The notes beneath the pieces were generated by a model. That model saw only the letters and a list, made by a program, of their open reading frames with translations. It was not told the origin of the DNA and ran no database searches. Of a stretch of 44,606 bases of DNA, positions 1-35,091 are shown one piece after another. Every line of letters starts with the position of its first letter. Positions within the stretch are counted from its first letter, which is position 1. Both the position numbers and the translations under genes were made by a program. Source of the DNA: a virus (Duplodnaviria > Heunggongvirae > Uroviricota > Caudoviricetes); the IMG/VR virus record IMGVR_UViG_2711768040_000011, positions 1 to 44,606 of that record. The stretch is one strand, 5' to 3'.

Positions 1-672
1 ATGTGTGGACGTTTTGCACAAGCCCAAACCCGTGAAGACTATCTGGCGTACCTGGCCGACGAAGGAGATCGTGACATCGCCTACGACCCGGAGCCTATTG
101 GCCGTTACAACGTGTCGCCCGGTACCAAAGTCCTACTGCTGAGCGAGCGAGACGAGCAGCTGCATCTCGATCCGGTTCTGTGGTCGTACGCGCCCGGGTG
201 GTGGGATAAGCAGCCGCTGATTAACGCGCGCGTCGAGACGGCGGCCACTAGCAGAATGTTCAAACCTCTCTGGCAGCATGGCCGGGCGATCTGTTTTGCG
301 GATGGATGGTTTGAATGGAAGAAGGAAGGCGACAAGAAACAGCCCTACTTCATTCACCGGGCCGATGGCCTGCCCATTTTCATGGCGGCGATCGGCAGTA
401 CGCCTTTCGAACGCGGCGATGAAGCGGAAGGATTTCTGATAGTGACGTCTGCAGCTGACAAAGGCCTGGTCGATATTCACGACCGCCGGCCGCTGGTTCT
501 GTCACCTGAAGCGGCGCGCGAATGGATGCGTCAGGATGTAGGCGGGAAAGAAGCTGAGGAGATAATTGCCGACGGTACAGTGCCCGCCGACAAGTTTATC
601 TGGCACCCTGTTACGCGCGCCGTGGGCAATGTGAAGAATCAGGGCTCGGAGCTGATCCAGCCGCTTTCGTGA
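1..672 (+). CDS. yedK: SOS response-associated peptidase (SRAP/YedK family, abasic-site DNA-protein crosslink enzyme)
   Basis: 223-aa ORF beginning MCGRFAQ (Cys2 nucleophile hallmark of SRAP); starts at window base 1. Confidence 0.85.
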   Translation: MCGRFAQAQTREDYLAYLADEGDRDIAYDPEPIGRYNVSPGTKVLLLSERDEQLHLDPVLWSYAPGWWDKQPLINARVETAATSRMFKPLWQHGRAICFADGWFEWKKEGDKKQPYFIHRADGLPIFMAAIGSTPFERGDEAEGFLIVTSAADKGLVDIHDRRPLVLSPEAAREWMRQDVGGKEAEEIIADGTVPADKFIWHPVTRAVGNVKNQGSELIQPLS

Positions 673-681
673 GTTGCGGGT

Positions 682-999
682 TTATATCGGAAGCTCGTCA
701 TCCCTCGCACGGTTGATGAAGAACGTCACCCGCCCCATCACCTCTACCTCTTCCAGTGCCGGGCCTTCTATCGCCTCGCCATCGTCCGTGATTAACGCCT
801 TACCCATCAACTTGGCGAACTGCGTATGCCCTTCGCACAGGATCAGCAACACATCGCCTGGCGTCTTTTTCGTAGCCGGCTCTATTACTGCGTACCCCGT
901 ATCAGTCTCGAGAACCCTGCTCTCGGGCTTAATGTGGCACAGAACAACCGGGGAGAGCTGGCGCTCAACGTAATCCATCGCCGGTGAAGGAAATCCCAT
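682..999 (-). CDS. UmuD'-like protein (HumD-like; LexA/S24 fold, starts at the position of processed UmuD')
   Basis: N-terminus MGFPSPAMDYVERQ matches the UmuD segment immediately after the RecA-dependent cleavage site (GFPSPAADYVEQ); C-terminal blocks resemble UmuD; start overlaps upstream stop (TGATG). Confidence 0.55.
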   Translation of the reverse strand: MGFPSPAMDYVERQLSPVVLCHIKPESRVLETDTGYAVIEPATKKTPGDVLLILCEGHTQFAKLMGKALITDDGEAIEGPALEEVEVMGRVTFFINRARDDELPI

Positions 1000-1238
1000 C
1001 AGTGAACCCTCCCCATGTTGCGCAGGATCCAGTAGTGGTTGTCTGTCCCGTCAGTCGTCTTATCCGTGAAGTCTGGCTGATAGCGATCTATCCAGGCATT
1101 GGCGTCTGTTCGGGTAAAGTGCCAGTTGAACTCCCGCAGCTTCTCGATAAAGCTGTCTGTGCTCAGATAGCGGTAGCCCTTGGGATTGAGCTGTATGACC
1201 GCAACAAAGGCGGCATGTATGTCTGCTGTGCGTGGCAT
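999..1238 (-). CDS. hypothetical protein, first gene of SOS-box cassette
   Basis: 79-aa ORF from ATG at 1238 with GAGGTG SD; translationally coupled to downstream UmuD'-like gene; LexA box 19-34 nt upstream. Confidence 0.45.
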   Translation of the reverse strand: MPRTADIHAAFVAVIQLNPKGYRYLSTDSFIEKLREFNWHFTRTDANAWIDRYQPDFTDKTTDGTDNHYWILRNMGRVH

Positions 1239-1256
1239 AATCACCTCACAAAATAA

Positions 1257-1272
1257 CTGTATAGATATACAG
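1257..1272 (-). promoter_or_regulatory. LexA (SOS) box CTGT-N8-ACAG
   Basis: Palindrome aaCTGTATAGATATACAGta at 1255-1274, matching the enterobacterial SOS box consensus, immediately upstream of the minus-strand cassette. Confidence 0.6.
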
Positions 1273-1542
1273 TATCGTTGAGTATTAGCCTTGGTCAACC
1301 CGAAATTTTCTGATTTTCGTTACTGAGAGCTTAGGTATGGTGTAAGCTATTGACGTTAGTTTGCTCTCAACAAGTTACTAACTAGGGGGTCAGGCGGGCT
1401 TCGCTCTCTTGACCCCTGACTTTCCACATTGGTAGTTGTCCACTCCCTGCATCTGTTTTTACAAAGCACATAATCATTACACAAATTAAGCTTTATGATT
1501 ATAATGCTATTGTCTCTACATCTTTTGAGCCTAACAATCAAT

Positions 1543-2655
1543 ATGAAATTATCTCAAAATCAGTCTGATGCACTTGAGTCTCTCAGGGGGTTGTCAGCTA
1601 TCGCAGTGTTAATCTGTCACTTTTTTCAGGTCTTTCTGGCTAGATTTTATCCTGATTACTTTCATGCCGATTTGATCATTGCTCAGTCTAGCGTAATGAT
1701 TTTTTTTGTTATGAGTGGCTTTCTTATTGGTGTATCAGTGCAGTCAAACATCAGTCGAAACGGAAGTTTTGACCTCATTTCGTATGCCAAATCACGATTT
1801 CTTCGTATTTACCCGCCTTTATTGTTTGCCATTATATTGTGTTTCATTTTGTCTAGCTTGGCCCCAATTTTCTTTGAAAGCGGAAGCGCCTCTTTCATGA
1901 TCCCAGATGCTTTTACACGAGGTAAATCTCTGGAAATGCCAGCAAAAGAGATTTTGGCCTCACTTACTTTCATGAATGGATTCTTGCCAGTAGGTGCAAA
2001 TTTTAACTCCCCTCTGTGGAGCCTACCGTACGAGGTGTGGTACTACGTTGTCTTTGGCCTACTTGCAACTCTACGCCCTGGGCTTGTGATTCTTGGTCTT
2101 ATTTTTTTCTTTGTCATTTCAATGGCAAATGATCGCTTCATGGCTTACTCAGTAATATGGGGAGCCGGTTTCGCAATGTCATTCTTACTTTCAAGAACTG
2201 CTTATGCTAAAGCGCTATGTGTTATCGGGCTTGCTTATTTCGGTTATCAATCTTATTTAAATGCAGGAACATTCCTGGACGGAACAACCGATCTAGAAAT
2301 GTATAAAATTACATTCGGCCTCGCATTTTCCATGCTCGTTTATATAGCACTCTTCATTTATGACCTGCCTTTCAAGGTGTTAAAGAAATCATCAAAAATT
2401 TCATACACGTTATATATCACTCATTTCCCTGTTATGCTTTTCTTCATCGGAGCTTTCGAGTACACAGTTAAAAATGATGCTTCGTTATCTGCGGTCATTG
2501 GGATCTGCGCAATGGTTGTGGCCTTAATCATTTCGCATTACGCATCACAAGTTTTTGAGAACAAAAAAGTAATGGCTGCAATGTTTATGAAAAAGGCCAT
2601 GCAAGAAAAATCAAATATCAGAAGTCCGGAGCATACGTCCCTGACACAAAAATAG
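1543..2655 (+). CDS. membrane acyltransferase (acyltransferase-3/OafA family; putative O-antigen O-acetyltransferase, lysogenic conversion)
   Basis: Multi-TM protein with ESLRGLSAIAVLICH motif typical of acyltransferase-3; AT-rich; in-frame alternative start at 1495; 3' end overlaps tailspike 3' end. Confidence 0.8.
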   Translation: MKLSQNQSDALESLRGLSAIAVLICHFFQVFLARFYPDYFHADLIIAQSSVMIFFVMSGFLIGVSVQSNISRNGSFDLISYAKSRFLRIYPPLLFAIILCFILSSLAPIFFESGSASFMIPDAFTRGKSLEMPAKEILASLTFMNGFLPVGANFNSPLWSLPYEVWYYVVFGLLATLRPGLVILGLIFFFVISMANDRFMAYSVIWGAGFAMSFLLSRTAYAKALCVIGLAYFGYQSYLNAGTFLDGTTDLEMYKITFGLAFSMLVYIALFIYDLPFKVLKKSSKISYTLYITHFPVMLFFIGAFEYTVKNDASLSAVIGICAMVVALIISHYASQVFENKKVMAAMFMKKAMQEKSNIRSPEHTSLTQK

Positions 2656-4570
2656 TCGTGCCGAGAGACTGCAGGAATGCTGGTTTTACTAGAACATTCT
2701 TGAGGCTAACTGCTACCCACGTGCTATTCGAAACGTTGGCCGCCATCACGATAGTTTGTGTCGTTGATGGCGCATTCACTCCCACCGTAGCAGACGTGTC
2801 TACAAGAGTAGAACCAGCATAATATGACACTGCAGGTAACGTAGTTGTTGCTCCATGTGTCAATGTCACAAGACCAGCTGAACCAGATGCCGACACAAGG
2901 GATGAAATCCATGCTGGGGGAGTTGCGGCAGGCCTGCCAGATCTGATTTCGCCAGTATTTACGTTTACTATAATATCCAGATTGGCATATATAGTTACAC
3001 GCAAATTATAATCTGTGCTTACGTTTAATCTGTCAGCAATAGCAAACAAGCCACTGGTTAATTCTGTTCTGTTTAAATATGCGGTAAAATCAAACCAACA
3101 CGACGCATTATCTGAAATGGTAAATAATAATGAGTTACCGTCACTTGCAGGAGCAACCTTCGATATATTCGACGGGCGCATCACTCCAGTATCGTTATTT
3201 AGATTAAGAATTTGCCACGAAGAACTAGATGAGGCATATCGTGCTGCTGCAGCACAATGCTTTGCCCTTAGCCATGGCGCAACGTTGTTTCCTGTGTACT
3301 GTAACAGATCCTCAGGGGTCTTTGTTTTCACTCCCCCCTTCTCGATAGCCCACAATCCTCTCGCCGCTCCTGCACCCATGGTGTTATAGCCTTTTTGGGT
3401 ATAGTGAACTCCTTCTGTTCCTACGTTTCCGTCACGATTAAGGAATGAAGGACACCCATCAAAAGCAGTAACAGCAATATCTCGAGCATTAACAACATAT
3501 CTCTGAGCGTTCTGGATGGTTTGCCATGTGTATTCTGGTCGGTTCTTTGGGCTGCCAACTGTACAGTTTGCGAACCTTGCCAGAGGTATATCTGCAGAAA
3601 GATTATCGATGAGATTAACAAACAAAGATCGGTAAGAATCGAACGATGTCTCGTTAAGCTGATCTGTTTCACCCTGATGGAAGAGAACATATACTTTTCC
3701 GAGCGTTAACCCCTGAGTCCCCATTCTTGATATTGCATTATTAACACCTGCAACTAATAAGCCATAATAGTCAGACGCGCCAGTAGATGCCCCCTTAGAA
3801 AGTTGAGCTAACGAGGTAGCACCACGACCACAATGAACAACAACAGCACCCCTGCCACTCAGTCGATACCATTCGTTAGTAAATTCACCCCATGCATGCC
3901 CTGAAGATGCCACTCCTGACGAGCTTACAATGGCCTGAATGATCGGTTTAATAGTACCGTCTGTGAAATCATACATCAGTGATTTCGGCAGCGGGGATGG
4001 GAATCCAGACGTATCACCAGAAAGAATGGCCTCGCCAGCGCTATTGGACTGGCCGTAGGTCACGATCAGGTCATATACATCAGGGGCTTCAAGATATTTT
4101 GTACCCCTAACGTTCTGCGCAACCTGAGATGCCGGCACTCCAGCAATACTCACCGTGCTATTAACATCGGCTAGCTGCTTACGGAGAACATCGCTAACGT
4201 CAACGAGTTGCCATTTACCCTCGCCTGTTCCGCCTGATGAGCCAGGCGTTGATCCAGAAGGAACTGTCTTGGGTAATGTCGAAAGGTCATCCCATCGGTA
4301 CCATGCGCCAGAGGTAGTGTCCTGGATGATATCTCCTGGGTTATTGACTATCGCCCCACCCTGGAAGGTTCCTACGGGATTCCAGCCAAGGGCATAGATC
4401 TGTTCGAGAACCAAAGCCTTCAGACCTTCAATCGTGTAGTGCTTATTCCCGAAGCGATCGATATACCACTCAGCAAAAGAGGTAACGAATTCATCTATTT
4501 TCCCGGCGTTAAATTTCAGGTCAATTGGGGATTCGCTCGGTACAGGCCTATTGGTAGGTGTAGTAGCCAT
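2618..4570 (-). CDS. tailspike / receptor-binding protein with SGNH (SASA/DUF303-type) esterase domain
   Basis: 650-aa ORF at distal end of tail module; central GQSNSAGEA and HQGETD blocks resemble sialate O-acetylesterase family motifs; C-terminal third is AT-rich. Confidence 0.75.
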   Translation of the reverse strand: MATTPTNRPVPSESPIDLKFNAGKIDEFVTSFAEWYIDRFGNKHYTIEGLKALVLEQIYALGWNPVGTFQGGAIVNNPGDIIQDTTSGAWYRWDDLSTLPKTVPSGSTPGSSGGTGEGKWQLVDVSDVLRKQLADVNSTVSIAGVPASQVAQNVRGTKYLEAPDVYDLIVTYGQSNSAGEAILSGDTSGFPSPLPKSLMYDFTDGTIKPIIQAIVSSSGVASSGHAWGEFTNEWYRLSGRGAVVVHCGRGATSLAQLSKGASTGASDYYGLLVAGVNNAISRMGTQGLTLGKVYVLFHQGETDQLNETSFDSYRSLFVNLIDNLSADIPLARFANCTVGSPKNRPEYTWQTIQNAQRYVVNARDIAVTAFDGCPSFLNRDGNVGTEGVHYTQKGYNTMGAGAARGLWAIEKGGVKTKTPEDLLQYTGNNVAPWLRAKHCAAAARYASSSSSWQILNLNNDTGVMRPSNISKVAPASDGNSLLFTISDNASCWFDFTAYLNRTELTSGLFAIADRLNVSTDYNLRVTIYANLDIIVNVNTGEIRSGRPAATPPAWISSLVSASGSAGLVTLTHGATTTLPAVSYYAGSTLVDTSATVGVNAPSTTQTIVMAANVSNSTWVAVSLKNVLVKPAFLQSLGTTIFVSGTYAPDF

Positions 4571-4581
4571 ATTTATTCCAT

Positions 4582-4605
4582 AAAAAACCCGGCACAGTGG
4601 CCGGG
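4582..4605 (-). terminator. rho-independent terminator-like hairpin between tail tip gene and tailspike
   Basis: cccggc-acagtg-gccggg stem-loop followed by U-run on minus strand. Confidence 0.45.
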
Positions 4606-4627
4606 TCGGGTTGGTCGGGGACGGTTC

Positions 4628-7105
4628 TTATTGATAGATGGCGTCGCTGTACTCTGCGACAGTCAGAGATACCGTGTTATCTGTGTTCGGTTTGATGCTG
4701 TTGACCTTCCATAGTTGGCTGTTCAGCTCTTCCACTGTCGCAATGAGGTAGCGCGACGGGAGCTGTACAGTGTCTCCGTTCCAGATATTGAGTTGAATCT
4801 CGGGTATTGCCGCGGTGAATCCGTACTTCGTATCGGCGCGGGCGGTGGCCGGATAGCGCAGAGTCGGGTTGCCCAGGCTGTCGGTCACCAGGACATACAT
4901 CGAGCCGGTAAACGTTATTGGCTCGCTGGTATCAAAATTATTCCCGGCGCGGCCAGTGATATAACCTTGCTGCTGGTTGCTGTCGTAGATATCCGCTATC
5001 TGCACGACGCTACCGACCTGCATGATCCCGTCCTCAAACACTTTGGCGTTCATCTTCACCCGGGAGTAGATAAGGCGCCTCGTTTCGCGCAGAGCGCGTT
5101 CCCGCGCCTGATACTCGTTACGGAAGCCGACTATCTCGATTTTGTTCGGGTTCTCCGCTTCCTGCTCGACGATAGCGCCGTTCAGAACGCGGTAGTTGAT
5201 GTACGTCTTGTTGTTCGTGGTTGGATGCACGTAGGACACCTGCACGCCGTCGTAGCCGCCAGGAAGAGTGGCCTCGTACGTCATTTTGTACTCGTCCGTC
5301 TTCATGTTGGCACGGTTGAATACGGCCGCCGGGTAGTCAACCTTTTGATCACGGGTAAACGTCAGCACGCCGTCGTCCCAGTACGCAATGACAGATGCCG
5401 CATTGCAGATCGCCTGCACGCGGTCGCCGAGAGAATCGTTCTCGTCATCAAACGTGTAGTCGAAGTAACCCAGGCGTTCGTCAGGTAAGCTTTCAGCGAT
5501 CGAGTACAGGCCGTAAAGGTCAATGCTGCTAACAGGTTGCTCACCCATAATCAGCCAGGTATGCGCCACTGCATCAGCGAACGAGCGCGAGGCCCGCAGG
5601 GTGTAATCCACCGCTTGCGTCGTCAGGTTGTAACTGATGGTCTGACGCGTCACCAGGGCGTTGTATTTGCGGTCACGGCTGCCCAGGGCGTTCTCCGTCG
5701 CCCTTACCTTCACGCGCACCAGCGTATCGGTTGGATGCACGACGTTGGTTCTGACGTTGACCGAGTGGATCTCCTCAACCTTCAGGATAGAGGCATCACT
5801 GGAGTTATCTGTGCGCTGGAAGTTAATGGCGTACTTGCCGAAACCGCCGGTCGGCGTCAGCTTATCGGTGCGGTAAAATACTTCGCTCGATGATTTGTGC
5901 GGCGTACCCTGATGGTAGGTGAACGTCTGTTGCGTTCCCGGCACCTGGTTGTAGTCATCGTCAATCTTCCAGATCGTTACCTTCCAGTCAGCGGACTTTT
6001 TGCCGCCCAGCTGCACCTGAGTGTGCAGCCACAACTGAGAGGATTCGACAGGCGAGAAGAACGGGCCTACCACGAGCGCTTCGTTATCGTTGAGTATGAA
6101 CTTTGTCGTGTTGATGGTCGCCGTTGCCGGCACGTCAGGAGGGCCAATCAGATCCCCCATCGTGAATGTGTACCACCGGACCGGGTTAACCACTGCGCCG
6201 TCGTTGGTTTCGACAGCTGAAATCAGCGTGCCGGAGAAATCGACATCCTGCGTAACGTTTCCGGTTGGCGAGCTGTAGGTGACGTTAATCGTAAAGGTAA
6301 CGGCGTGCGGCAGGACCAGGCCCATGAAGTAATCAAACTCAGGCTGCTTGACGATTTTTACTGCAATCTGCCCGCCGGAGTAAGTTCCGCTCACAACCGT
6401 AGTAGCCGTAGCAGTCTCGATCGGGAAATTATCCGATTCGTTTTGCCCGGGCACTTCCTGGCCATCCACGTCGTCGAACCCGTAGCCTTCGTTGATGGTA
6501 GGGATCACTTCACCCGGCTGGTAAAACTGGAATTCTGCACCGGCCATGCTTCCGAGGCTGGACTCTGAATAACGCACAGACTCGTAATCATATTTGCCGA
6601 TCCCGATGCACATCCACTCAGTAACGTACTTCAGGCCGCCATCCGTGTCGCTCTGGCGCACGTATTCGAACAGCGACTCCTGAATCAGGTCCGGGAACGA
6701 ACGGATTTGTCCGTAGATGTCCGGTTTTGCTTTGTAGACGCGTGCCGTATTCGTCTGGCCGGTTAGGCTATTGTTTGGCGAGTCAATCGTGTTGCCGCCG
6801 GTATTGGCTATCGCCGGCTTTGGTGCAAGGAAAGAGAATACCGCGCCGACAACTTTGAAGATCGGGCTGAGAATGTCGCCAATGATGCCCTTGGGCTGGT
6901 CGAATATCTGGACGGTGTCCAGTTCACATAGCTCAAACGCCAGCTCATCATCTTCGCCCAGCTTTACGCCGTTGCGGACGATCAGCAGATCGCGGTGAAA
7001 GGTAGCGTCATTAGCTGCAAGCCAGTCATAAAAAAGGGTGCCGTTTGGCACCCTGCAACGCAGCTTAGGCGTTCCTGGAAAATTCGATATCTCAACCAGA
7101 GCCAT
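4628..7105 (-). CDS. tail tip / host specificity protein (gpJ-like central tail fibre)
   Basis: 825-aa ORF directly downstream of NlpC/P60 tail gene in conserved tail-tip order. Confidence 0.65.
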   Translation of the reverse strand: MALVEISNFPGTPKLRCRVPNGTLFYDWLAANDATFHRDLLIVRNGVKLGEDDELAFELCELDTVQIFDQPKGIIGDILSPIFKVVGAVFSFLAPKPAIANTGGNTIDSPNNSLTGQTNTARVYKAKPDIYGQIRSFPDLIQESLFEYVRQSDTDGGLKYVTEWMCIGIGKYDYESVRYSESSLGSMAGAEFQFYQPGEVIPTINEGYGFDDVDGQEVPGQNESDNFPIETATATTVVSGTYSGGQIAVKIVKQPEFDYFMGLVLPHAVTFTINVTYSSPTGNVTQDVDFSGTLISAVETNDGAVVNPVRWYTFTMGDLIGPPDVPATATINTTKFILNDNEALVVGPFFSPVESSQLWLHTQVQLGGKKSADWKVTIWKIDDDYNQVPGTQQTFTYHQGTPHKSSSEVFYRTDKLTPTGGFGKYAINFQRTDNSSDASILKVEEIHSVNVRTNVVHPTDTLVRVKVRATENALGSRDRKYNALVTRQTISYNLTTQAVDYTLRASRSFADAVAHTWLIMGEQPVSSIDLYGLYSIAESLPDERLGYFDYTFDDENDSLGDRVQAICNAASVIAYWDDGVLTFTRDQKVDYPAAVFNRANMKTDEYKMTYEATLPGGYDGVQVSYVHPTTNNKTYINYRVLNGAIVEQEAENPNKIEIVGFRNEYQARERALRETRRLIYSRVKMNAKVFEDGIMQVGSVVQIADIYDSNQQQGYITGRAGNNFDTSEPITFTGSMYVLVTDSLGNPTLRYPATARADTKYGFTAAIPEIQLNIWNGDTVQLPSRYLIATVEELNSQLWKVNSIKPNTDNTVSLTVAEYSDAIYQ

Positions 7106-7508
7106 ATTCGAAAAACTCCACTTTGGTGAATGCCCGCTGAATGACCAGCAACGAGTCCATGCGTACGCTTCCGTTCTCGCCGCGCGAGTGCAGCGCCTGA
7201 CGGTTTAGTACCAGACCAACATGCGCCGGTTGCGCGCCGCGGTACCCGACGAATATCCCACCCTCGACCGGCTTATCCACCGGGCGCCAGAAAACGACAT
7301 CACCTTGGTAGCAGGTGAAGAAGTCCTCACCGGCTTCGTAGTCCGGCGTCTGGTGCAGTTCAATGCCGAGAACGTGCCGGTAATACAGCACCACCAGGCC
7401 CCAACAATCGACCTTCTCGAAAGAGCAGGCCCGGTTAGCCCACGGCACGCCGATCACCTTCCGAACAAAATCAGAGGTACTGCAGGCCGGTATATTCCGT
7501 TGGGTCAT
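7092..7508 (-). CDS. tail assembly protein, NlpC/P60-like (gpK-like)
   Basis: 138-aa ORF with Cys-containing CWGLV motif; position between minor tail protein and tip protein. Confidence 0.55.
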   Translation of the reverse strand: MTQRNIPACSTSDFVRKVIGVPWANRACSFEKVDCWGLVVLYYRHVLGIELHQTPDYEAGEDFFTCYQGDVVFWRPVDKPVEGGIFVGYRGAQPAHVGLVLNRQALHSRGENGSVRMDSLLVIQRAFTKVEFFEYGSG

Positions 7509-7941
7509 AGAGCCTTCCGATGTTGTTGTTCAGCGGGTTGGTGACGGACAGGGTTACTGACGCGGAGTCAGCGTCGATGTCCACTGTCTTGACGTATAAC
7601 TGCCAGGACTTAATCGGCACAGACACGTCCCCGCTGTCGAAGATCTGCCTTGTGGCCGTGATGGCCGTCAGCCGGGCCGCGCCCTTCCACTGCTTCATCA
7701 GCGCTTTGATATCCGACGACAGCCGCCCTAATTTCACCGTCGCGTCGATCACCGGCGTACCGCTCTGCTGGCTCTCTTCGATTTCAAAACGCGCGGGCGT
7801 GTACGTCTGGCCACCAAGCGTTTTCTCGAAGAACTGCTTATCGACCAGGCGGACATAACCAAATGATGGATGGTAGAACGTGATGGTGTCGTACAGACCT
7901 CGCGTCGGGCGCTGCTGCTTATACTCCCTAAAGCTCGGCAT
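7471..7941 (-). CDS. minor tail protein
   Basis: ORF with start MPSFREYK coupled to upstream stop at 7941; tail module position. Confidence 0.55.
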   Translation of the reverse strand: MPSFREYKQQRPTRGLYDTITFYHPSFGYVRLVDKQFFEKTLGGQTYTPARFEIEESQQSGTPVIDATVKLGRLSSDIKALMKQWKGAARLTAITATRQIFDSGDVSVPIKSWQLYVKTVDIDADSASVTLSVTNPLNNNIGRLYDPTEYTGLQYL

Positions 7942-8438
7942 TACGGCACCCTCGGTAGTGATTCCGGATCGCGTCCGTCCGGATAGCCAGTGACAACGAT
8001 ATCCAGCCAGGAATCCCACGGCGGCGGCAGTTCAACAATGATGTCGTCGAATTCGTCGTCGGCGTTGTAGAGGTGGTTCGCAATAACGGTCCCCGTCCAG
8101 GTCACCACCCCGCCGTCGATACTGGTTTGCACCGGCATCTGCGTGAAGTGAAGCTCCTGCAGCTGCAGGCCACTGCCGCCCAGGTTGATATTCATCCGGA
8201 ACCAGTTCAGGCCCCGGTTGAGATAGTTCGGGCTGCGCAGCCACTGTTGGAAAGCGCGCTCCTGCGCCAGGGTGAATATCCACGTCAGCGACCAGGTCAC
8301 TTTCAGGTCGTCGGTTTGGTTCTCGAATATGGCCGGGCCGACCGCTGGCTGATCGGTCTGGAACCCGGTATCGAGCGTCATGTTTTTGCTGGCCTTCTGC
8401 GCCAGCGGCAGCCAGTCGGGATAGTCGATAATTGGCAT
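7941..8438 (-). CDS. minor tail protein (distal tail component)
   Basis: 165-aa ORF immediately after tape measure gene, start overlaps TMP stop. Confidence 0.5.
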   Translation of the reverse strand: MPIIDYPDWLPLAQKASKNMTLDTGFQTDQPAVGPAIFENQTDDLKVTWSLTWIFTLAQERAFQQWLRSPNYLNRGLNWFRMNINLGGSGLQLQELHFTQMPVQTSIDGGVVTWTGTVIANHLYNADDEFDDIIVELPPPWDSWLDIVVTGYPDGRDPESLPRVP

Positions 8439-10771
8439 CAGCCCTGCCCCCTTGGCGTGCGTTTAACGTTCATGTTGCTGGTAATGGCGTTACTGATTGG
8501 GCCGCCGTTGTTCAGGTCTGCAACGATGAAATCAACGGTAAGCCCGCCGTTTGCATCTGTACCAGCCTGGGCATCGACAGAGGATGACGTATAGTTCTGG
8601 ATGTTGATTACCACCCCGCCGCCACCCCCTGCAGTCATATCCTTGTTACTGATCACCTTGCCGTTGTCGCCCGGTATCATGTACTGCTTACCGGTACTGG
8701 CCTGGTAAATCTCCGGCATGCCACCTTCGCCGACCTGGTACATTCCGCCCGCCGTTACCGGACCGCCGTTCTTACGTTTACCGAGAAGGTTCGCGCCAAT
8801 AACGCCGGCCACCGCGCCGAGACCGATCGCCGCCGCCGTACCCATTGAGGCTATTGAGGAAAGGATCGCCGCCGGGGTCCATGCCGCCGCAGTCGTTGCC
8901 GCCGCCGCTGTGCTGGTAGCAGTCTGTGTTGCCACTGCTGCCGTCTGCACTGCTGTCACCGTGCCGATAGCAGCAGTTTGTGCCGCTTGCCCCATGATGG
9001 CCGACTTCACCCACTCGATACCCATCTGGACGAACGAATTAACAACGCTGTTCAGGACCGTCATGCCTATACTGCGCATTGCGTCGCTGGCAGACATGCT
9101 GCCTGTGATGATTCCTGTCAGCGCGTTACTGGCAACCGAGCCGAGTGAATCGAAAGCTGCCGCCGCTGCTTGTGTGGCCGCGTTCTGCTGCGCCCACTCT
9201 TCCCACATCGCCGCGTTGCGCTGATCCCGATATTGCTGTTCGATAGCAGCGCGCGCAGCCTCAGCCTCCCCGACCTTTTGCGGGTAAAGCTGAGCGTATT
9301 GTTGGATATCCGAGATGTCTTTCTGATACTGACTATCCAGTCCGGCAGTTTTGCTGGTTTTACCCTGGATGGTGCTGAACTTATTGGCAGCGTCAGTACG
9401 CTCCTTTTCTGCCTTGGCCTGGGCGCGCAATGCGTTGGCGTTATCCCAGGCTTTAGCCGCGTATTGCCCGGCCAGAATGACCTGTTCCTGTGTCGCATCA
9501 TTACCGAGAGACTGCTGTGCATTAAGCACGGCCTGAGCTCGCGATAACTCACCAACGCTTCCGGCTGACAGTTCGGCTTTCTGCTTCAGTTCATCGAGTT
9601 TTTGGTTAACAGACTCTTGAGCTTTAGCGTATTGCTCTGCCTCTTTCTGAGCAGCAGACTTTCCGCCTTTCGCTTTGCTGCCAGCAGCTGAGCCGGACGT
9701 TTTAATCTCGATCGGCTTTGTGTTAGCCGCGGTCTGTGATGCTTTGGAAACAGCAGCCAGATCGCCAACCAGCATGGCAGCTTTATTGCTCAGCCCGGCC
9801 AGGGCTTTGTTTTGCGCTTCCCAGCCATCAAGTCCAAGCCAGGACCAGGTGCGCGCCCGACGCGTGAACATTTCTGCAGTGCTGTTCAGATCTGATATCT
9901 GAGCGTCTGCCGACGCCGCTTTACCCACCAGCCGGTCGAGCGCTGCAGTCATTGAGTCGATAACCGCAACCAGTCCTGTGCTTGCTCCTGTCGCCTGGTT
10001 AACAGAGTCAATCATCGACAGGAATGAGTTAGTCAGCGCGGTATTAGCCTGGGAAAGCGTGCGAGGGAGTTTCTCGAATTCTGCATTCACTGAGCCGGTT
10101 TGCTTCTGAATGGCGTTGAGAGCATCTTCTGCCGTCAGTTTGCCGTCCAGCATCAGCTGACGAAGTTCTCCAATACTTACACCCATCCCGGCGGCAATCT
10201 GGCGCGCAAGTTCAGGCATTTGCTCAAGGATGGAGTTGAACTCCTCCGCCCGGACAGTACCGGAGGAAATTGACTGACCGAACTGGCGCAGCGCATTCGC
10301 CATTTCCTCTGATGAGGATCCGCCAATGCGACCGATTTTCTGAAGCGTCTCGGTGAGCTGAATGATCTGGCCGTTCGTCGCGCCGGTATCGCGAAGTGCA
10401 GTGCTGAGAGTTTCCCACAGTTTTGCGGTGTCCTGCAGCGACCCGCCGGTTGCAGAGCTTATGCGCATCAAGGCCTGCATTGTCTGCGATGCCGCTGCAG
10501 CGCTGCCTGTCAGACGCTCAATGCGCGCGTTGAGCTGGCTCATGTTGTCAGCAGCAACGAGAAACGCCTTACCCCAGTCAACAACGAGTGAAGCCGCAAT
10601 AGCGCCGGCCACGCGGTTGATATTGGTCTGCAGCTCATCCATCTTTTTGGCTGCGTTAGTGGCAGAGTTGCCGATTGAGTCGAGTGACTTATTGGCCTTT
10701 CCCTGCGCCTTCAGCAAGCCAGAAACATCGGCCTCGATGTCGTAATAGATCTCGCCTGCTTTCTCAGACAT
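8438..10771 (-). CDS. tail tape measure protein
   Basis: 777-aa Ala/Gln-rich mostly helical protein with hydrophobic Gly-rich segment, located between chaperone and tail tip genes. Confidence 0.9.
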   Translation of the reverse strand: MSEKAGEIYYDIEADVSGLLKAQGKANKSLDSIGNSATNAAKKMDELQTNINRVAGAIAASLVVDWGKAFLVAADNMSQLNARIERLTGSAAAASQTMQALMRISSATGGSLQDTAKLWETLSTALRDTGATNGQIIQLTETLQKIGRIGGSSSEEMANALRQFGQSISSGTVRAEEFNSILEQMPELARQIAAGMGVSIGELRQLMLDGKLTAEDALNAIQKQTGSVNAEFEKLPRTLSQANTALTNSFLSMIDSVNQATGASTGLVAVIDSMTAALDRLVGKAASADAQISDLNSTAEMFTRRARTWSWLGLDGWEAQNKALAGLSNKAAMLVGDLAAVSKASQTAANTKPIEIKTSGSAAGSKAKGGKSAAQKEAEQYAKAQESVNQKLDELKQKAELSAGSVGELSRAQAVLNAQQSLGNDATQEQVILAGQYAAKAWDNANALRAQAKAEKERTDAANKFSTIQGKTSKTAGLDSQYQKDISDIQQYAQLYPQKVGEAEAARAAIEQQYRDQRNAAMWEEWAQQNAATQAAAAAFDSLGSVASNALTGIITGSMSASDAMRSIGMTVLNSVVNSFVQMGIEWVKSAIMGQAAQTAAIGTVTAVQTAAVATQTATSTAAAATTAAAWTPAAILSSIASMGTAAAIGLGAVAGVIGANLLGKRKNGGPVTAGGMYQVGEGGMPEIYQASTGKQYMIPGDNGKVISNKDMTAGGGGGVVINIQNYTSSSVDAQAGTDANGGLTVDFIVADLNNGGPISNAITSNMNVKRTPRGQG

Positions 10772-10788
10772 CAGTTTTCTCCGGGCAT

Positions 10789-10811
10789 AAAAAAACCCAC
10801 CGAGTGGTGGG
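10789..10811 (-). terminator. rho-independent terminator downstream of lipoprotein moron
   Basis: cccacc-gagt-ggtggg hairpin followed by 7 U on minus strand. Confidence 0.55.
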
Positions 10812-10828
10812 TTAGTTATTCGTGTCGT

Positions 10829-11203
10829 TTATTGGCATCGGTCTATGTATGCCTGAGGCGGCGGCGTATCTTTCGAGCTGAGGAAGTGTTCACCAAGCGT
10901 GTAATCGACACCTTTTGAGAACATCCCTTTCGATTTCATGTTCAGCTCAACGAAGAAAGGATGAAATCCAGCATACGCCCCGAAGCCGTTCTTGCCGTTA
11001 ATCTCACCGCAAACTACAGCAATGATACGGCCGTCATCGGCATCAGTCATTTTGGCTATTTTCACGTTGCGGAACTGTGCGCTAGCCGGGTCTTTAAGAT
11101 TTGCAGCAACCTCTGATTTCGCCAGTGATATAGCCTTTTCCTCGCCGGGCTTGCAGCCAGCCAGAACCAGTGGAATCGCCAAAGCCAAAAGTATTTTCTT
11201 CAC
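10829..11203 (-). CDS. lipoprotein (moron inside tail module)
   Basis: MKKILLALAIPLVLAGC signal peptide with lipobox; inserted between chaperone and tape measure genes, with its own terminator. Confidence 0.8.
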   Translation of the reverse strand: MKKILLALAIPLVLAGCKPGEEKAISLAKSEVAANLKDPASAQFRNVKIAKMTDADDGRIIAVVCGEINGKNGFGAYAGFHPFFVELNMKSKGMFSKGVDYTLGEHFLSSKDTPPPQAYIDRCQ

Positions 11204-11275
11204 CCTTATCCCCTGAGTTTTATTGTCGAGCCATATTACGCCCGGTCAGGCGTGGCTGGTATACCCATTATTAAC

Positions 11276-12019
11276 TCAGGCCGCTCTCTTTGCTGATTTT
11301 TCGCGCTCAATCATTTCCTGCCAACGGCGATCGTCATCGTCCATAACAGCGTCGTACTCTTCCCTGGTGAAGCCTTTCTGGTCCGGGTATTTGGCATTCA
11401 GCATCATTGCAAATTCGGTCATGGTGAGTTCCATCGCCTCTTCCTTGCTGATACCGAAGTGATTGCGGGCTGCCATGATGTATTCAGTCGCATGGAATTC
11501 TGGAGTCGTCTCCTTTCCTTCATGTTTCTGAAGTTTTCGAACCCTGGCCCGGCCGATAATGCCATGCATGATGAGAGACTGGGCTATGAGGATCAGGTTT
11601 TCTGGTGGGAGCGCGCCGCGGCGCCATACGAATGTACGACGACCTGTGCGAGAGGGTTCACTCCAGCCTGTTAACTCGGAAACATCTTCATCGCAGCAGG
11701 ATTGAATGACATTGATGGCCGAGAGAAGCGCCTCACGCACAAAAGCGGCAGAGCCTGCAGCATCAAGCGCCCAACGTGGAACCGAGACGTCACCGAAATA
11801 GTGGGCGTAGAACTTGCGCTGATGCTCAGGTATAGCGCTGTGAATTTCTCTCGCCGCATCAAGCATTCTCGCCACGTCGTCATTAAACAGCGCATAGAAC
11901 GTCCTGACGATATGGTCTGGCTCGCCAATGCGCGTCATGCTACGGAAAGACGGACGGAAGAAATATTCCCGCTCTCCAGCGCCTATCATGCACTCGCCAA
12001 TTTCTTTCAAAGGGGTCAT
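11276..12019 (-). CDS. putative tail assembly chaperone
   Basis: Position between major tail and tape measure genes; start ATG 12019 with GGAGA SD; no frameshift site identified. Confidence 0.45.
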   Translation of the reverse strand: MTPLKEIGECMIGAGEREYFFRPSFRSMTRIGEPDHIVRTFYALFNDDVARMLDAAREIHSAIPEHQRKFYAHYFGDVSVPRWALDAAGSAAFVREALLSAINVIQSCCDEDVSELTGWSEPSRTGRRTFVWRRGALPPENLILIAQSLIMHGIIGRARVRKLQKHEGKETTPEFHATEYIMAARNHFGISKEEAMELTMTEFAMMLNAKYPDQKGFTREEYDAVMDDDDRRWQEMIEREKSAKRAA

Positions 12020-12069
12020 ATAAATCTCCATAACCAGTATCAAGGGCAGCACGCCGCCCTTTGTAGTGA

Positions 12070-23101: not shown

Positions 23102-23320
23102 TTACTCCGTTGTTTGTCCTGCTGGCTGTTCGGTCTGCTCTGCCGGTACTGGCGTAAACTGCACGCGCTTCACATCGGCCGGAGCGAAATAAAGCCACTC
23201 GCCCGTCTCTGTCGCCAGCGGCACAAAGCCATTAACCAACTCAGGCTGACGTCGTGACATCTTGCCCGTGAAGGTTTCGCCTGTTTGAGTGGTTAGCGTG
23301 ATTTGGTAGATGTCGGACAT
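23102..23320 (-). CDS. small hypothetical protein
   Basis: 72-aa ORF from ATG 23320 with GAGGG SD, directly upstream of terminase small subunit. Confidence 0.45.
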   Translation of the reverse strand: MSDIYQITLTTQTGETFTGKMSRRQPELVNGFVPLATETGEWLYFAPADVKRVQFTPVPAEQTEQPAGQTTE

Positions 23321-23349
23321 GAAGACCCTCACAAGCCACTGTTGAAGAA

Positions 23350-23375
23350 AATGCCATCAGCATGGTGATGGCATT
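23350..23375 (-). terminator. terminator-like hairpin downstream of AT-rich moron
   Basis: 10-bp inverted repeat aatgccatca/tgatggcatt with 6-nt loop, followed by U-rich tract on minus strand. Confidence 0.4.
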
Positions 23376-23397
23376 ACAATTCAATAATATGGCTGTA

Positions 23398-23979: not shown

Positions 23980-24047
23980 ATATGAGCACCTTATTTTGTT
24001 GTAGACAGAGCCTACAATACAACCAGATGCAACTATTAAGAAAACCT

Positions 24048-34975: not shown

Positions 34976-35007
34976 TGGTGTCTCCGGGTGAGTCGTTTGA
35001 TTTGGAG

Positions 35008-35073: not shown

Positions 35074-35091
35074 AGCAGTAACAATGCAGGT

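What the first reader, a model, noticed from the sequence alone, without database searches (positions are those of the whole stretch)
1495..4570. AT-rich conversion module: acyltransferase-3 gene convergent with, and overlapping, an esterase-bearing tailspike
The acyltransferase gene and the last third of the tailspike gene are visibly more AT-rich than the rest of the prophage, and the two genes overlap tail-to-tail by 38 bp (2618-2655). This suggests a horizontally acquired block joining a putative O-antigen acetylation gene to the receptor-binding C-terminus. The phage appears to both modify the surface polysaccharide and recognise or process it.
Basis: partly seen in the sequence, partly recalled or inferred. 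Interest (0 to 1): 0.6.

Follow-up and report, generated by a model that had tools for sequence, protein, structure and literature searches.

The report
Esterase tailspike plus O-acetyltransferase cassette
At one end of an E. coli prophage, a low-GC 2.6-kb block carries the sugar-deacetylating, receptor-binding part of the tailspike and a membrane O-acetyltransferase gene. Both features are real, and the block has moved as one unit between different phage types, but it is an ordinary example of the known pairing of a receptor-binding protein with a serotype-conversion gene.

Summary
ORF 1495/1543-2655 (+) is an Acyl_transf_3 protein. ORF 2618-4570 (-) is a 650-aa tailspike with an N-terminal adaptor, a SASA/SGNH acetylesterase domain and a C-terminal beta-sandwich. 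The two genes overlap tail-to-tail by 38 bp.

GC drops to 0.39-0.47 (GC3 0.36-0.40), against 0.54 (GC3 about 0.65-0.70) in the prophage backbone. The low-GC block covers tailspike residues about 160-650, not only the last third. The acyltransferase most likely starts at 1543.

Window 1465-4097 recurs with the same 38-bp overlap and the same promoter. It is found in a Lelliottia siphovirus prophage and in two P22-like prophages whose tailspikes carry a different N-terminal adaptor. Receptor-binding part and acyltransferase diverge together (93/85, 90/87, 84/78, 71/55 % identity), so the block is one mobile cassette.

A control tempers the interest. In this prophage family the slot after the tailspike nearly always holds a glycan-modification module (AT3, AT3-SGNH, gtrABC or GNAT). 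AT3 is no commoner after esterase tailspikes (7/13) than after others (7/14).

Verdict: a new member of a known kind, namely a serotype-converting prophage with an esterase receptor-binding protein. Whether the two enzymes act on the same acetyl group is untested.

The parts
1275..1464 (.). Left junction and spacer of the variable slot. Backbone homology with all family relatives ends at ~1274-1290. The segment contains a strong hairpin (about 1385-1418).
   Evidence: blastn against all fetched loci: L066, L051, L043, L012, L050, L003, L053, L055 and L061 all stop matching at 1274-1288. RNAfold of 1370-1435 gives -24.8 kcal/mol.
1465..4097 (.). Mobile low-GC cassette: acyltransferase with its promoter, plus the receptor-binding three quarters of the tailspike gene.
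   Evidence: Exactly this span matches the P22-like prophages L001/L002 (73.7% nt), and 1500-4162 matches L078 (77.7% nt). Inside-window GC is 0.425 against 0.537 outside.
1476..1505 (+). Predicted sigma-70 promoter of the acyltransferase (-35 TTACAC/TACACA, -10 TATAAT at 1500-1505).
   Evidence: Consensus scan scores 10 of 12 matches. Both hexamers are conserved in L001 and L003 although the surrounding sequence has diverged. This is a prediction only.
1543..2655 (+). AT3-only membrane O-acyltransferase, 370 aa.
   Evidence: PF01757 E=4e-24; phrog_3333 'O-acetyltransferase' E=2e-30. R15-X10-H26, F54-F55-x-x-S58-G59, R85-x-x-R88, H294 and E339 are conserved in >=93% of 94 homologues. ATG 1543 is conserved in L001, L003 and L078.
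2618..2655 (.). 38-bp tail-to-tail overlap of the two coding regions.
   Evidence: The same overlap is present in L003 (9916-9953), L001 (6624-6661), L078 (6865-6902) and L081 (11013-11050). L011 has no overlap; its acyltransferase stops earlier.
2621..3262 (-). Tailspike C-terminal all-beta domain (aa ~437-650), the most variable part and presumably the specificity-determining part. It ends in the conserved ...SGTYAPDF.
   Evidence: AlphaFold model strands 308-518 of the truncated construct, pLDDT mostly 83-96. Identity to relatives falls here to 42-78%, against 75-97% in the esterase domain.
3359..4072 (-). SASA/SGNH-fold carbohydrate O-acetylesterase domain (aa 167-404). Nucleophile Ser175 lies in GQSN (codon 4046-4048) and His389 is at codon 3404-3406.
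   Evidence: PF03629 scores 40.6 bits against a cutoff of 24.8. Y-G-Q-S-N and H389 are invariant in 37 homologues. Foldseek probability 1.0 to acetylxylan and sialic-acid esterases 1zmb, 2apj, 7kmm and 8f9p.
4166..4570 (-). Tailspike N-terminal adaptor (aa 1-135) belonging to the siphovirus backbone, not to the cassette.
   Evidence: PF18668 Tail_spike_N. It matches PDB 9occ_G 'putative tail protein gp13' over residues 1-135 (E=1e-30). Identity is 96-100% to L012/L003 but 15-23% to the P22-like tailspikes. Shared at nucleotide level with E. coli and Enterobacter prophages carrying other receptor-binding parts.
4586..4607 (-). Terminator-like hairpin with a T-run, between the TipJ gene and the tailspike start.
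   Evidence: Consensus scan: 8-bp stem with 6 GC pairs, followed by TTTTAT. Function not tested.
4628..7105 (-). TipJ-family host-specificity / tail-tip protein (context); the conserved backbone gene upstream of the tailspike.
   Evidence: phrog_469 E=1e-253. Its 90%-identity cluster is named TipJ family and holds 3,453 members, mostly Enterobacter hormaechei and E. coli.

Best explanation
Window 1275-4570 is the host-recognition and serotype-conversion end of a complete temperate siphovirus prophage of Escherichia coli.

The 650-aa protein is a modular tailspike. A backbone-specific N-terminal adaptor (aa 1-135) attaches it to the tail tip. It carries an SGNH/SASA-type carbohydrate O-acetylesterase domain (aa ~160-410) and a C-terminal beta-sandwich (aa ~437-650).

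By analogy with characterised esterase tailspikes, the virion binds an O-acetylated surface polysaccharide, most probably the O-antigen. It strips acetyl groups rather than cutting the chain, and in this way works its way to the outer membrane.

The convergent 370-aa AT3-only membrane acyltransferase is a lysogenic-conversion gene with its own promoter. In the lysogen it O-acetylates a surface glycan. The most likely effect is to change the receptor, so that the resident phage type and other glycan-dependent phages adsorb poorly. This is the classical logic of Sf6 Oac, BTP1 GtrC/OafB and P22 or Hf4s Gtr.

Receptor-binding part and acyltransferase form one low-GC cassette. It is exchanged by recombination between phages of different morphotypes, at a slot flanked by conserved backbone sequence.

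Shown: gene structure, domains, conserved catalytic motifs, composition, cassette boundaries, co-divergence, and the generic nature of the slot.
Inferred: the substrate, the position acetylated, expression in the lysogen, and the exclusion effect.
For: Domains and motifs. The AT3 motifs R/K-X10-H and RXXR are those described as functionally essential in OafA/OafB and OacA (PMC9558356).

Fold: the model has pLDDT 85.9. It matches carbohydrate acetylesterases and the cyanophage Pan3 tailspike in the PDB. In BFVD it matches KP8 gp84, Vi-phage ViI/Vi06 tail proteins and the Pectobacterium phage PP99 tailspike.

Virion role: the gene follows TipJ and carries a Tail_spike_N adaptor. The same receptor-binding part, at 53-56% identity, forms tail proteins of lytic Klebsiella N4-like and T7-like phages. 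KP8 gp84 is listed in that phage's table of predicted gene products as a tail fibre protein with an SGNH-esterase domain (PMC6950046).

Prophage context: integrase, CI-like repressor and Rz are present. The exact proteins occur on about 79 E. coli contigs.

Cassette: boundaries 1465-4097 against P22-like prophages. The 38-bp overlap, the promoter and the start codon are conserved. Receptor-binding part / AT3 identities co-vary: 93/85, 90/87, 84/78, 71/55 %. GC3 is 0.36-0.40 against 0.65-0.70.

Slot: backbone homology ends at ~1275-1290 in all relatives. Relatives carry AT3, AT3-SGNH, gtrABC, GT2+Wzx, or GNAT plus polysaccharide deacetylase at the same place.

Precedents: G7C gp63.1 deacetylates O-antigen and needs the acetyl group to infect (PMC10743462). 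Sf6 Oac and BTP1 OafB block their own tailspikes (PMC9558356). The Hf4s Gtr cluster abolishes its own adsorption (bioRxiv 10.1101/2021.06.09.447823).
Against: No experiment or tool here identifies the glycan, the acetylated position, or any esterase or transferase activity.

An acetyltransferase is an odd way to exclude a phage whose spike removes acetyl groups. Exclusion works only if the AT3 acetylates a position or sugar the esterase cannot clear. The esterase acid residue of the triad is not clearly conserved (E at His-3 is not in the >=90% list).

The receptor-binding part does not need the phage-borne AT3. Lytic Klebsiella phages and several prophages (L012/13, L074, L077, L027) carry related parts without it.

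The promoter is a consensus match only.

Co-divergence of the two genes is expected from tight linkage alone and does not prove functional matching.
Confidence: 0.72

Rival explanations
1. Writer-eraser pair on the same mark. The AT3 installs exactly the O-acetyl group that the tailspike esterase recognises and removes. The cassette would be self-contained. The lysogen's acetylation shields it from phages that need the unmodified glycan. Virions of the cassette-bearing phage can still penetrate acetylated cells, including lysogens of heteroimmune phages with the same cassette, and are not trapped on debris because the spike destroys its own receptor.
For: The two genes are inherited together across five lineages, two virion morphotypes and at least three host genera, with co-varying divergence. 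Esterase tailspike plus AT3 pairs arose several times with unrelated AT3s and esterases: L032, L023, L050, the G7C-gp63.1-like L053, and the E. coli GDSL spikes L059/L060. G7C strictly requires O-acetylation of its receptor. A 2026 paper raises an acetylation/deacetylation interplay for Klebsiella prophages (PMC13123978).
Against: AT3 is not enriched after esterase spikes: 7/13 against 7/14 lineages, Fisher p=1.0. Close AT3 relatives (37-42% identity) sit next to a beta-helix tailspike (L072) and next to a 931-aa convergent protein without a Pfam match, at most presumably a tailspike (L068). Related receptor-binding parts work in phages without any AT3. Linkage alone explains the co-divergence.
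Confidence: 0.2
2. No functional coupling. The AT3 is a generic moron that happens to occupy the universal cargo slot next to the tailspike. It may acetylate a polymer other than the phage receptor, such as ECA, colanic acid or capsule, for host benefit such as immune evasion or resistance to unrelated phages. It travels with the receptor-binding part only because recombination breakpoints lie in the conserved flanks.
For: The slot holds many different modules in relatives, regardless of spike chemistry. Backbone homology ends at the same two points in all relatives. AT3-only proteins have diverse substrates (PMC9558356). L012/13 replace the AT3 with another gene while keeping an esterase spike.
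Against: In the P22-like prophages the flanks differ (P22 head-binding domain on one side, S24 peptidase and host genes on the other). Yet the block boundaries still enclose both genes, and the overlap is retained. Every experimentally studied tailspike-adjacent conversion gene read about here (Sf6 oac, BTP1 gtrC/oafB, P22 and Hf4s gtr) modifies the phage's own receptor.
Confidence: 0.25
3. The 38-bp overlap is a regulatory device. Convergent transcription without an intervening terminator lets late-operon read-through silence the AT3 during lytic growth. Equally, AT3 transcription in the lysogen could damp leaky tailspike expression by antisense RNA.
For: The overlap is conserved in at least four lineages at 74-83% nucleotide identity. 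No terminator-like site lies between the genes; the only plus-strand candidate is at 3306-3321, inside the tailspike gene.
Against: The overlap is simply explained. The AT3 frame lacks an earlier stop and reads through the antisense of the strongly conserved tailspike end (...SGTYAPDF). The AT3 tail 'EHTSL' is conserved because the tailspike is. The 55%-identical orthologue in L011 stops earlier and does not overlap. No RNA data exist.
Confidence: 0.1
4. The low GC reflects amino-acid and codon constraints of a membrane protein rather than foreign origin.
For: AT3 proteins are rich in Phe, Ile and Leu, and the AT3 gene is the most AT-rich segment at 0.397.
Against: GC3, which is largely independent of amino-acid content, is 0.36-0.40 over the AT3 and also over the soluble esterase and C-terminal domains, against 0.65-0.70 in neighbouring genes. 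The same block is low-GC in Enterobacter, Lelliottia and other contexts (0.38-0.46 against flanks mostly 0.48-0.55, though two right flanks are only 0.41-0.46). Comparative mapping shows actual exchange.
Confidence: 0.03

Closest known systems
Shigella phage Sf6 oac (OacA) next to the tailspike gene, and related serotype-converting modules (P22/Hf4s gtrABC, BTP1 gtrC/oafB, PhiV10 O-acetyltransferase)
   Same: A temperate phage with an AT3-only O-acyltransferase (R/K-X10-H and RXXR motifs) sitting beside the tailspike gene at the prophage end. The expected role is lysogenic conversion of the receptor glycan and superinfection exclusion (PMC9558356).
   Different: In those phages the tailspike is a glycosidase (endorhamnosidase or beta-helix). 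Here it is an acetylesterase, so spike and conversion enzyme have chemically opposite activities. Sequence identity of the AT3 to any phage-database record is <=27%. The two genes overlap by 38 bp and move as one block.
Coliphage G7C tailspike gp63.1 (O-antigen deacetylase), plus the Pectobacterium PP99/Possum, Acinetobacter Aristophanes and Salmonella Vi-phage esterase spikes
   Same: A virion receptor-binding protein whose enzymatic domain has an SGNH-fold esterase rather than a depolymerase. The presumed mechanism is the same: bind and deacetylate the polysaccharide. The model gives fold-level matches to PP99 and Vi-phage proteins.
   Different: These are lytic phages without a conversion gene. 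G7C's esterase is GDSL-type with its own accessory domains (PF21562, PF21988), which are absent here; they do occur in relative L053. The window protein belongs to the SASA (PF03629) branch, and no sequence-level PDB hit covers its esterase part.
SGNH-domain receptor-binding proteins of Klebsiella pneumoniae prophages (PLoS Biol 2026, PMC13123978)
   Same: Temperate phages of Enterobacterales with esterase-type receptor-binding proteins. Two such proteins were shown to be active on p-nitrophenyl acetate. The paper reports prophage-encoded acetyltransferases in 5-30% of prophages and discusses an acetylation/deacetylation interplay.
   Different: That work is statistical and concerns the capsule. 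In the passages read it does not describe a physically fused, co-transferred esterase-RBP plus AT3 cassette. The host here is E. coli, and the likely target is the O-antigen.
Klebsiella phage KP8 gp84 and T7-like Klebsiella phage tail proteins (VLCpiA3a/b, K48PH164C1, phi1_146018 and others)
   Same: The closest characterised-phage homologues of the whole receptor-binding part, esterase plus C-terminal domain, at 53-56% identity over 93-96% of it. KP8 gp84 is also the best BFVD fold match.
   Different: These are lytic phages with different N-terminal adaptors, no acyltransferase and Klebsiella hosts. Activity and substrate are not determined for them either.

Membership tests
Acyl_transf_3 (PF01757), AT3-only O-acyltransferases (OacA/Lag-1/WbaK type) | Full-length match to the AT3 profile above the curated threshold | tested here: met
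   85.7 bits against a cutoff of 31, residues 26-347 of 386, profile positions 3-321 of 326. phrog_3333 'O-acetyltransferase' E=1.6e-30.
Acyl_transf_3 (PF01757), AT3-only O-acyltransferases (OacA/Lag-1/WbaK type) | Conserved functional motifs: R/K-X10-H in TM1 and RXXR in the first cytoplasmic loop | tested here: met
   R15...H26 and R85-F-L-R88 are present and conserved in 93-99% of 94 homologues. FFxxSG (54-59), H294 and E339 are also conserved. The motifs are as described in PMC9558356.
Acyl_transf_3 (PF01757), AT3-only O-acyltransferases (OacA/Lag-1/WbaK type) | No fused periplasmic SGNH domain (AT3-only architecture); polytopic membrane protein | tested here: met
   370 aa with only the AT3 domain. 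There are 7 distinct Kyte-Doolittle peaks >=1.6; this crude method probably undercounts the roughly 10 expected helices.
Acyl_transf_3 (PF01757), AT3-only O-acyltransferases (OacA/Lag-1/WbaK type) | Transfers acetyl to a defined surface glycan (O-antigen) | not testable with these tools
   Needs NMR/MS of LPS from lysogen against cured or AT3-deleted strains.
SASA / SGNH-fold carbohydrate O-acetylesterases (PF03629) | Profile match above threshold | tested here: met
   40.6 bits against a cutoff of 24.8, residues 167-404, profile positions 3-222 of 226.
SASA / SGNH-fold carbohydrate O-acetylesterases (PF03629) | Catalytic Ser in block I (GQSN) and catalytic His in block V | tested here: met
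   Y172-G-Q-S175-N176 and H389 are invariant across 37 homologues down to 25% identity. The acid partner of the triad is uncertain: E at His-3 is not >=90% conserved.
SASA / SGNH-fold carbohydrate O-acetylesterases (PF03629) | SGNH flavodoxin-like fold | tested here: met
   The model has pLDDT 85.9. Foldseek probability 1.0 to 1zmb, 2apj (TMt 0.72-0.75), 7kmm and sialic-acid esterase 8f9p.
SASA / SGNH-fold carbohydrate O-acetylesterases (PF03629) | Esterase activity on acetylated sugars | not testable with these tools
   Needs recombinant protein tested on pNP-acetate and on host polysaccharide.
G7C gp63.1-type esterase tailspikes | Virion attachment module plus esterase domain in one tail protein | tested here: met
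   Tail_spike_N (PF18668), a match to the solved tail protein 9occ_G, and gene position after TipJ.
G7C gp63.1-type esterase tailspikes | G7C-specific domains (PF21562 Gp63_3rd_G7C, PF21988 G7C_GBD) and a GDSL-type esterase | tested here: not met
   None of these domains is found in the window protein. They are found in relative L053. The window protein therefore works like gp63.1 but is not a member of that family.
G7C gp63.1-type esterase tailspikes | Deacetylation of the receptor is required for infection | not testable with these tools
   Needs a catalytic mutant phage and acetylation-deficient hosts.
Serotype-converting temperate phage module (tailspike-adjacent glycan-modification genes) | Modification gene adjacent to the tailspike at the end of a complete prophage | tested here: met
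   Integrase 43425-44606, CI-like repressor 34975-35769, Rz 24048-24527, and structural genes 4628 to about 23000. AT3 and tailspike lie at the opposite end.
Serotype-converting temperate phage module (tailspike-adjacent glycan-modification genes) | Independent expression in the lysogen | tested here: inconclusive
   A conserved sigma-70-like promoter is present and the gene points opposite to the late operon. No expression data exist.
Serotype-converting temperate phage module (tailspike-adjacent glycan-modification genes) | The same slot is used for alternative modification modules in relatives | tested here: met
   AT3, AT3-SGNH, gtrABC, GT2+Wzx, and GNAT plus polysaccharide deacetylase occur at the same position in more than 25 related loci.
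Serotype-converting temperate phage module (tailspike-adjacent glycan-modification genes) | The lysogen's O-antigen is altered and own-phage adsorption reduced | not testable with these tools
   Needs wet-lab adsorption and structural analysis.

The most novel reading that the evidence does not exclude
The esterase receptor-binding part and the AT3 would form a matched writer/eraser cassette acting on the same O-acetyl group. The lysogen 'locks' its O-antigen by acetylation against phages that need the bare glycan. Only virions carrying the cognate esterase can 'unlock' it. The cassette then spreads between unrelated phage backbones as a self-sufficient exclusion-with-bypass unit.

A related lead comes from relatives outside the window. 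Some prophages pair, or replace, the AT3 with a Tat-exported copy of the esterase. Three esterase tailspike genes carry an in-frame Tat-like leader. This suggests lysogens may also convert their surface by exported deacetylases.
Probability: 0.2. Interest if true: 0.65.

Novelty: new member of a known kind. Interest (0 to 1): 0.35.

Why it matters
The locus is a clean, well-delimited example of how host range and serotype conversion are packaged together. One 2.6-kb block carries both the part of the virion that reads a surface sugar and an enzyme that rewrites surface sugars. That block has moved between siphovirus and P22-like podovirus backbones in Escherichia, Enterobacter and Lelliottia.

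For phage therapy and serotyping, it is a reminder that O-acetylation status can be prophage-borne and is invisible to typing based on the O-antigen gene cluster.

If the two enzymes turned out to act on the same acetyl group, it would be a simple natural writer/eraser system governing phage-phage competition. The data here do not show that. The control survey indicates that the pairing is what one expects from a generic cargo slot.

Tried and rejected
(1) A genome-contig scan with the receptor-binding-part alignment was wasted.

(2) I tested the attractive idea that AT3 genes pair preferentially with esterase tailspikes, using 27 de-duplicated lineages. The result was 7/13 against 7/14 (Fisher p=1.0). 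gtrABC showed only a weak, non-significant tendency to avoid esterase spikes (1/13 against 5/14, p=0.16). The idea is rejected as unsupported. The tally is small, hand-curated and not phylogenetically corrected, and 'unknown' receptor-binding parts may hide esterases.

(3) I tested whether deeper relatives of this AT3 clade (37-42% identity) stay linked to SASA spikes. They do not. They sit next to a 931-aa convergent protein without a Pfam match (E. coli), next to a beta-helix spike (Providencia), or in a non-phage chromosomal context (Rahnella).

(4) Apparent truncations of the AT3 in L002 (319 aa) and L078 (252 aa) are gene-caller artefacts. The 370-aa frame is intact in both.

(5) My first local AT3 HMM missed divergent AT3s such as the L032 one; Pfam found them.

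(6) A search for a remnant of the 506-aa esterase gene in window 1275-1491 found nothing.

(7) Junction-pattern scans found no further backbone types. Viral contigs gave 0 hits. The metagenome scan gave one copy of the same prophage (L081) and one 1.8-kb fragment.

(8) megablast and blastn against 5,426 complete E. coli genomes found no copy of the cassette, only distant esterase domains in 6 genomes.

(9) Low GC as a membrane-protein artefact was rejected by the GC3 values.

Full report
**1. What is there**

The window is a complete temperate prophage. An integrase lies at 43425-44606, a CI-like S24 repressor at 34975-35769 and Rz at 24048-24527. Structural genes on the minus strand run from about 23000 down to a TipJ-family tail-tip gene at 4628-7105. 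Exact copies of its tailspike, acyltransferase, TipJ and SRAP proteins are on about 67-101 contigs, named Escherichia coli wherever a source name is listed. A near-identical copy lies in a food metagenome (L081).

The finding sits at the left end, and the two ORFs exist as described. ORF 1495..2655 (+) is an Acyl_transf_3 protein (PF01757, 85.7 bits against a cutoff of 31; phrog_3333 'O-acetyltransferase'). ORF 2618..4570 (-) is a 650-aa protein with Tail_spike_N (aa 67-123) and a SASA carbohydrate-esterase domain (aa 167-404). They overlap tail-to-tail by 38 bp.

**2. Composition**

One-kb windows inside 1300-4100 average 0.425 GC. Outside they average 0.537 +/- 0.031, and only 5 of 398 outside windows are <=0.45.

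Third-position GC makes the point independently of amino-acid content:

| Segment | GC3 |
|---|---|
| AT3 | 0.40 |
| Tailspike C-terminal domain | 0.355 |
| Esterase domain | 0.39 |
| Tailspike N-terminal adaptor | 0.48 |
| TipJ | 0.70 |
| SRAP | 0.65 |

The AT-rich block therefore covers about three quarters of the tailspike gene (aa ~160-650), not the last third. It stops where the backbone-specific adaptor begins.

**3. Gene models**

A sigma-70-like promoter (-35 TTACAC/TACACA, -10 TATAAT at 1500-1505) overlaps the ATG at 1495. The promoter hexamers and the ATG at 1543 are conserved in relatives, whereas the 1495 ATG is not (L001 has ACG there). The acyltransferase is therefore most likely 1543-2655, giving 370 aa, the length of the orthologues.

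It has the AT3 signature residues R15-X10-H26, FFxxSG (54-59), R85xxR88, H294 and E339. Each is conserved in 93-99% of 94 homologues. The first two motif classes are those reported as functionally essential in OafA/OafB and OacA (PMC9558356). It has no fused SGNH domain, so it is AT3-only, like Sf6 OacA.

**4. The tailspike**

Residues 1-135 match a solved tail protein (9occ_G, E=1e-30) and other tailspike N-termini.

A model of residues 130-650, built on 37 homologues, has mean pLDDT 85.9. It shows an alpha/beta SGNH-type domain followed by an all-beta C-terminal domain. Its best PDB matches are carbohydrate acetylesterases (1zmb, 2apj, 7kmm, mammalian sialic-acid esterase 8f9p) and the cyanophage Pan3 tailspike. 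Its best viral matches are Klebsiella phage KP8 gp84, Salmonella Vi-phage tail proteins and the Pectobacterium PP99 tailspike.

The GQSN serine (S175) and H389 are invariant in homologues down to 25% identity.

The same receptor-binding part, at 53-56% identity over its whole length, forms tail proteins of lytic N4-like (KP8) and T7-like Klebsiella phages. KP8 gp84 is listed in that phage's gene-product table as a tail fibre protein with an SGNH-esterase domain (PMC6950046).

The protein is thus a virion receptor-binding protein with an intact-looking acetylesterase site. It works like G7C gp63.1 but is not a member of that family, because it lacks the G7C-specific domains. Those domains do occur in relative L053.

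**5.

blastn of window 1-8000 against fetched relatives gives a clear picture.

- Two P22-like prophages match only the block: L001/L002 (Enterobacter cloacae) match window 1465-4097, and L078 matches 1500-4162. That is the AT3 with its promoter plus tailspike aa ~158-650. Their tailspikes start with the unrelated P22 head-binding domain, and their other flank is an S24 peptidase followed by host genes.
- A Lelliottia siphovirus prophage (L003) shares the whole backbone and the block. It has an extra 506-aa esterase gene inserted beyond the AT3.
- A close backbone relative (L012/L013; 89% nt identity over 1-1274 and 3203-8000) has a different receptor-binding allele. The esterase domain is 75% identical, the C-terminal domain is 42-62% identical, and there is no AT3.

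All four carriers (window, L003, L001/2, L078) keep the identical 38-bp overlap.

Receptor-binding part and AT3 identities to the window co-vary: 93/85 (L003), 90/87 (L078), 84/78 (L001) and 71/55 (L011). In L011 the AT3 stops earlier and there is no overlap.

The overlap has a simple origin. The AT3 frame runs on through the antisense of the strongly conserved tailspike end ...SGTYAPDF, which yields the conserved AT3 tail ...EHTSL..K.

**6. The slot is generic**

In every relative of this siphovirus family, backbone homology ends at window ~1274-1290. On the other side it ends inside the tailspike N-terminus.

Between these points, relatives carry many combinations.

| RBD type of the tailspike | Downstream module | Loci |
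|---|---|---|
| Pectate-lyase-type | gtrABC | L036-41, L043 |
| Unknown | gtrABC | L045-49, L054, L066 |
| Beta-helix | AT3 | L061, L062 |
| Glycerophosphodiesterase-type | AT3 | L063 |
| GDSL-esterase | AT3 or AT3-SGNH | L050, L059, L060 |
| G7C-gp63.1-like | AT3 | L053 |
| SASA | GT2 + Wzx-like + distant AT3 | L006-8, L014 |
| Not classified | GNAT plus polysaccharide deacetylase | L067 |

A de-duplicated tally gives AT3 downstream of 7/13 esterase-type and 7/14 other spikes (Fisher p=1.0). More distant members of this AT3 clade sit beside a beta-helix tailspike (Providencia) and beside a 931-aa convergent protein without a Pfam match (E. coli).

The esterase plus acetyltransferase pairing is therefore recurrent but not preferential. 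The general architecture, a variable receptor-binding part followed by a convergent glycan-modification module, is the known one for serotype-converting phages. Examples are Sf6 oac, P22 and Hf4s gtr, and BTP1 gtrC/oafB.

**7. Mechanism**

*Shown:* domains, motifs, fold, position in the tail module, prophage completeness, and cassette exchange.

*Inferred from characterised systems:* the virion spike binds an O-acetylated surface polysaccharide and deacetylates it without cutting it. G7C gp63.1 does this, and there the acetyl group is required for infection (PMC10743462). The AT3, expressed from its own promoter in the lysogen, O-acetylates a surface glycan.

I commit to the classical reading. 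The AT3 alters the receptor glycan at a position the spike cannot clear. This reduces adsorption of the same and other glycan-dependent phages.

The main rivals are these:
- The AT3 writes the very acetyl group the spike erases, giving exclusion of competitors with self-bypass.
- There is no functional coupling at all.

Sequence data cannot separate these. The relevant experiments are listed under next steps.

**8. Novelty**

Each of the following is already described:
- esterase tailspikes;
- AT3 conversion genes next to tailspikes;
- most recently, the abundance of SGNH receptor-binding proteins and acetyltransferases in Klebsiella prophages (PMC13123978).

What is added here is a precisely delimited cassette carrying both. 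It has a conserved gene overlap, and it is shared between siphovirus and P22-like podovirus backbones in three genera. It is absent from 5,426 complete E. coli genomes.

I rate it a new member of a known kind, of modest interest. The most interesting leads lie outside the window. They are the Tat-exported esterase paralogues that accompany or replace the AT3, and the Tat-like in-frame leaders on three esterase tailspike genes.

Noticed in passing
L003 11296-12816; L012/L013 8005-9525; L035 7253-8485: Relatives carry a second, non-virion esterase gene just downstream of the esterase tailspike. It has a Tat-type signal peptide (e.g. VSISRRSLLKLTGAATLAVPATSFA). In L003 and L012 it is a 506-aa SASA protein, 31-33% identical to the spike's esterase domain. 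In L035 it is a 410-aa GDSL protein, 41% identical to that locus's own spike. L012 has it instead of the AT3; L003 has both. This could be lysogenic conversion by an exported deacetylase.
   Followed up: partly
L018 5563-5658; L019 5566-5658; L025 5293-5364: Three esterase tailspike genes are open in frame for 24-32 codons upstream of the canonical start (L018 and L019 are P22-like, MSDITPNVV / MTEITPNVV; L025 starts MTTYNTGNPI). The extension begins with Met and reads like a Tat signal (MKRRTLLKSLLGLTSLLPVKFAASQ, MNRRSFFKSIASFVALTPFSSLSSQ, MRRRSFLKGGLVLSAAYPYTVSSS). The DNA has diverged while the Tat-like features are kept. The other tailspike genes checked, including the window's, have no such extension. 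A possible dual-start, exported form of a tailspike; unexplained.
   Followed up: partly
window ~1275-1290 and ~4100-4180: These are family-wide recombination junctions. All related siphovirus prophages lose backbone homology at the same two points. Between them they carry alternative pairs of receptor-binding part and glycan-modification module: AT3, AT3-SGNH, gtrABC, GT2+Wzx, or GNAT plus polysaccharide deacetylase.
   Followed up: yes
window 4586-4607 (-): A terminator-like GC-rich hairpin with a T-run lies between the TipJ stop and the tailspike start. Its translation (…FYGIN) recurs upstream of the tailspike in many relatives, so it is a conserved element at the adaptor-side edge of the slot.
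   Followed up: no
window 1385-1418: A strong hairpin (GGGGGTCAGG...TTGACCCCT; -24.8 kcal/mol for 1370-1435) lies in the 190-bp spacer between the backbone and the cassette. This spacer has no counterpart in L001, L003 or L012; only a 46-bp stretch just upstream of the hairpin (1337-1382) matches one relative (L062). It has no T-run, so it is not a canonical terminator.
   Followed up: no
window 1700-1707 (T8), 2102-2108 (T7), 1621-1626 (T6): There are long T homopolymers inside the AT3 coding region. The AT3 protein cluster contains split or truncated versions in some E. coli assemblies (for example HII2032094 and HII2032095, 203 + 171 aa). This may reflect slipped-strand inactivation or phase variation, or simply assembly errors.
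   Followed up: no
window 41944-43104 (+): An IS605-family TnpB/InsQ (Cas12f-like TNB domain) gene lies inside the prophage next to the integrase. The exact protein is on 490 contigs.
   Followed up: no
window 23301-24300: This is the second-lowest GC island of the window (0.43). It contains a 220-aa ORF (23398-24060, -) with no Pfam match, immediately downstream of Rz. It is probably another moron.
   Followed up: no
window 25382-25457 (-): A tRNA-Thr (anticodon TGT) is encoded inside the prophage.
   Followed up: no
window 1-1298: Beyond the conversion slot the prophage end carries an SRAP (SOS-response-associated peptidase) gene, a 105-aa ORF starting MGFPSP (relatives annotate it as an S24/UmuD-like peptidase) and a phrog_3893 gene. 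In relatives this is a full umuDC-like Pol V pair. The backbone GC (~0.55) and the TipJ cluster membership (mostly Enterobacter hormaechei) suggest an Enterobacter-type phage resident in E. coli.
   Followed up: partly
L059 (E. coli XJ5.2, NZ_CP074354.1) 9385-12277: A related prophage has qnrS1, together with IS3 and Tn3 fragments, inserted into its tail-gene region just upstream of the NlpC/P60 and TipJ genes.
   Followed up: no
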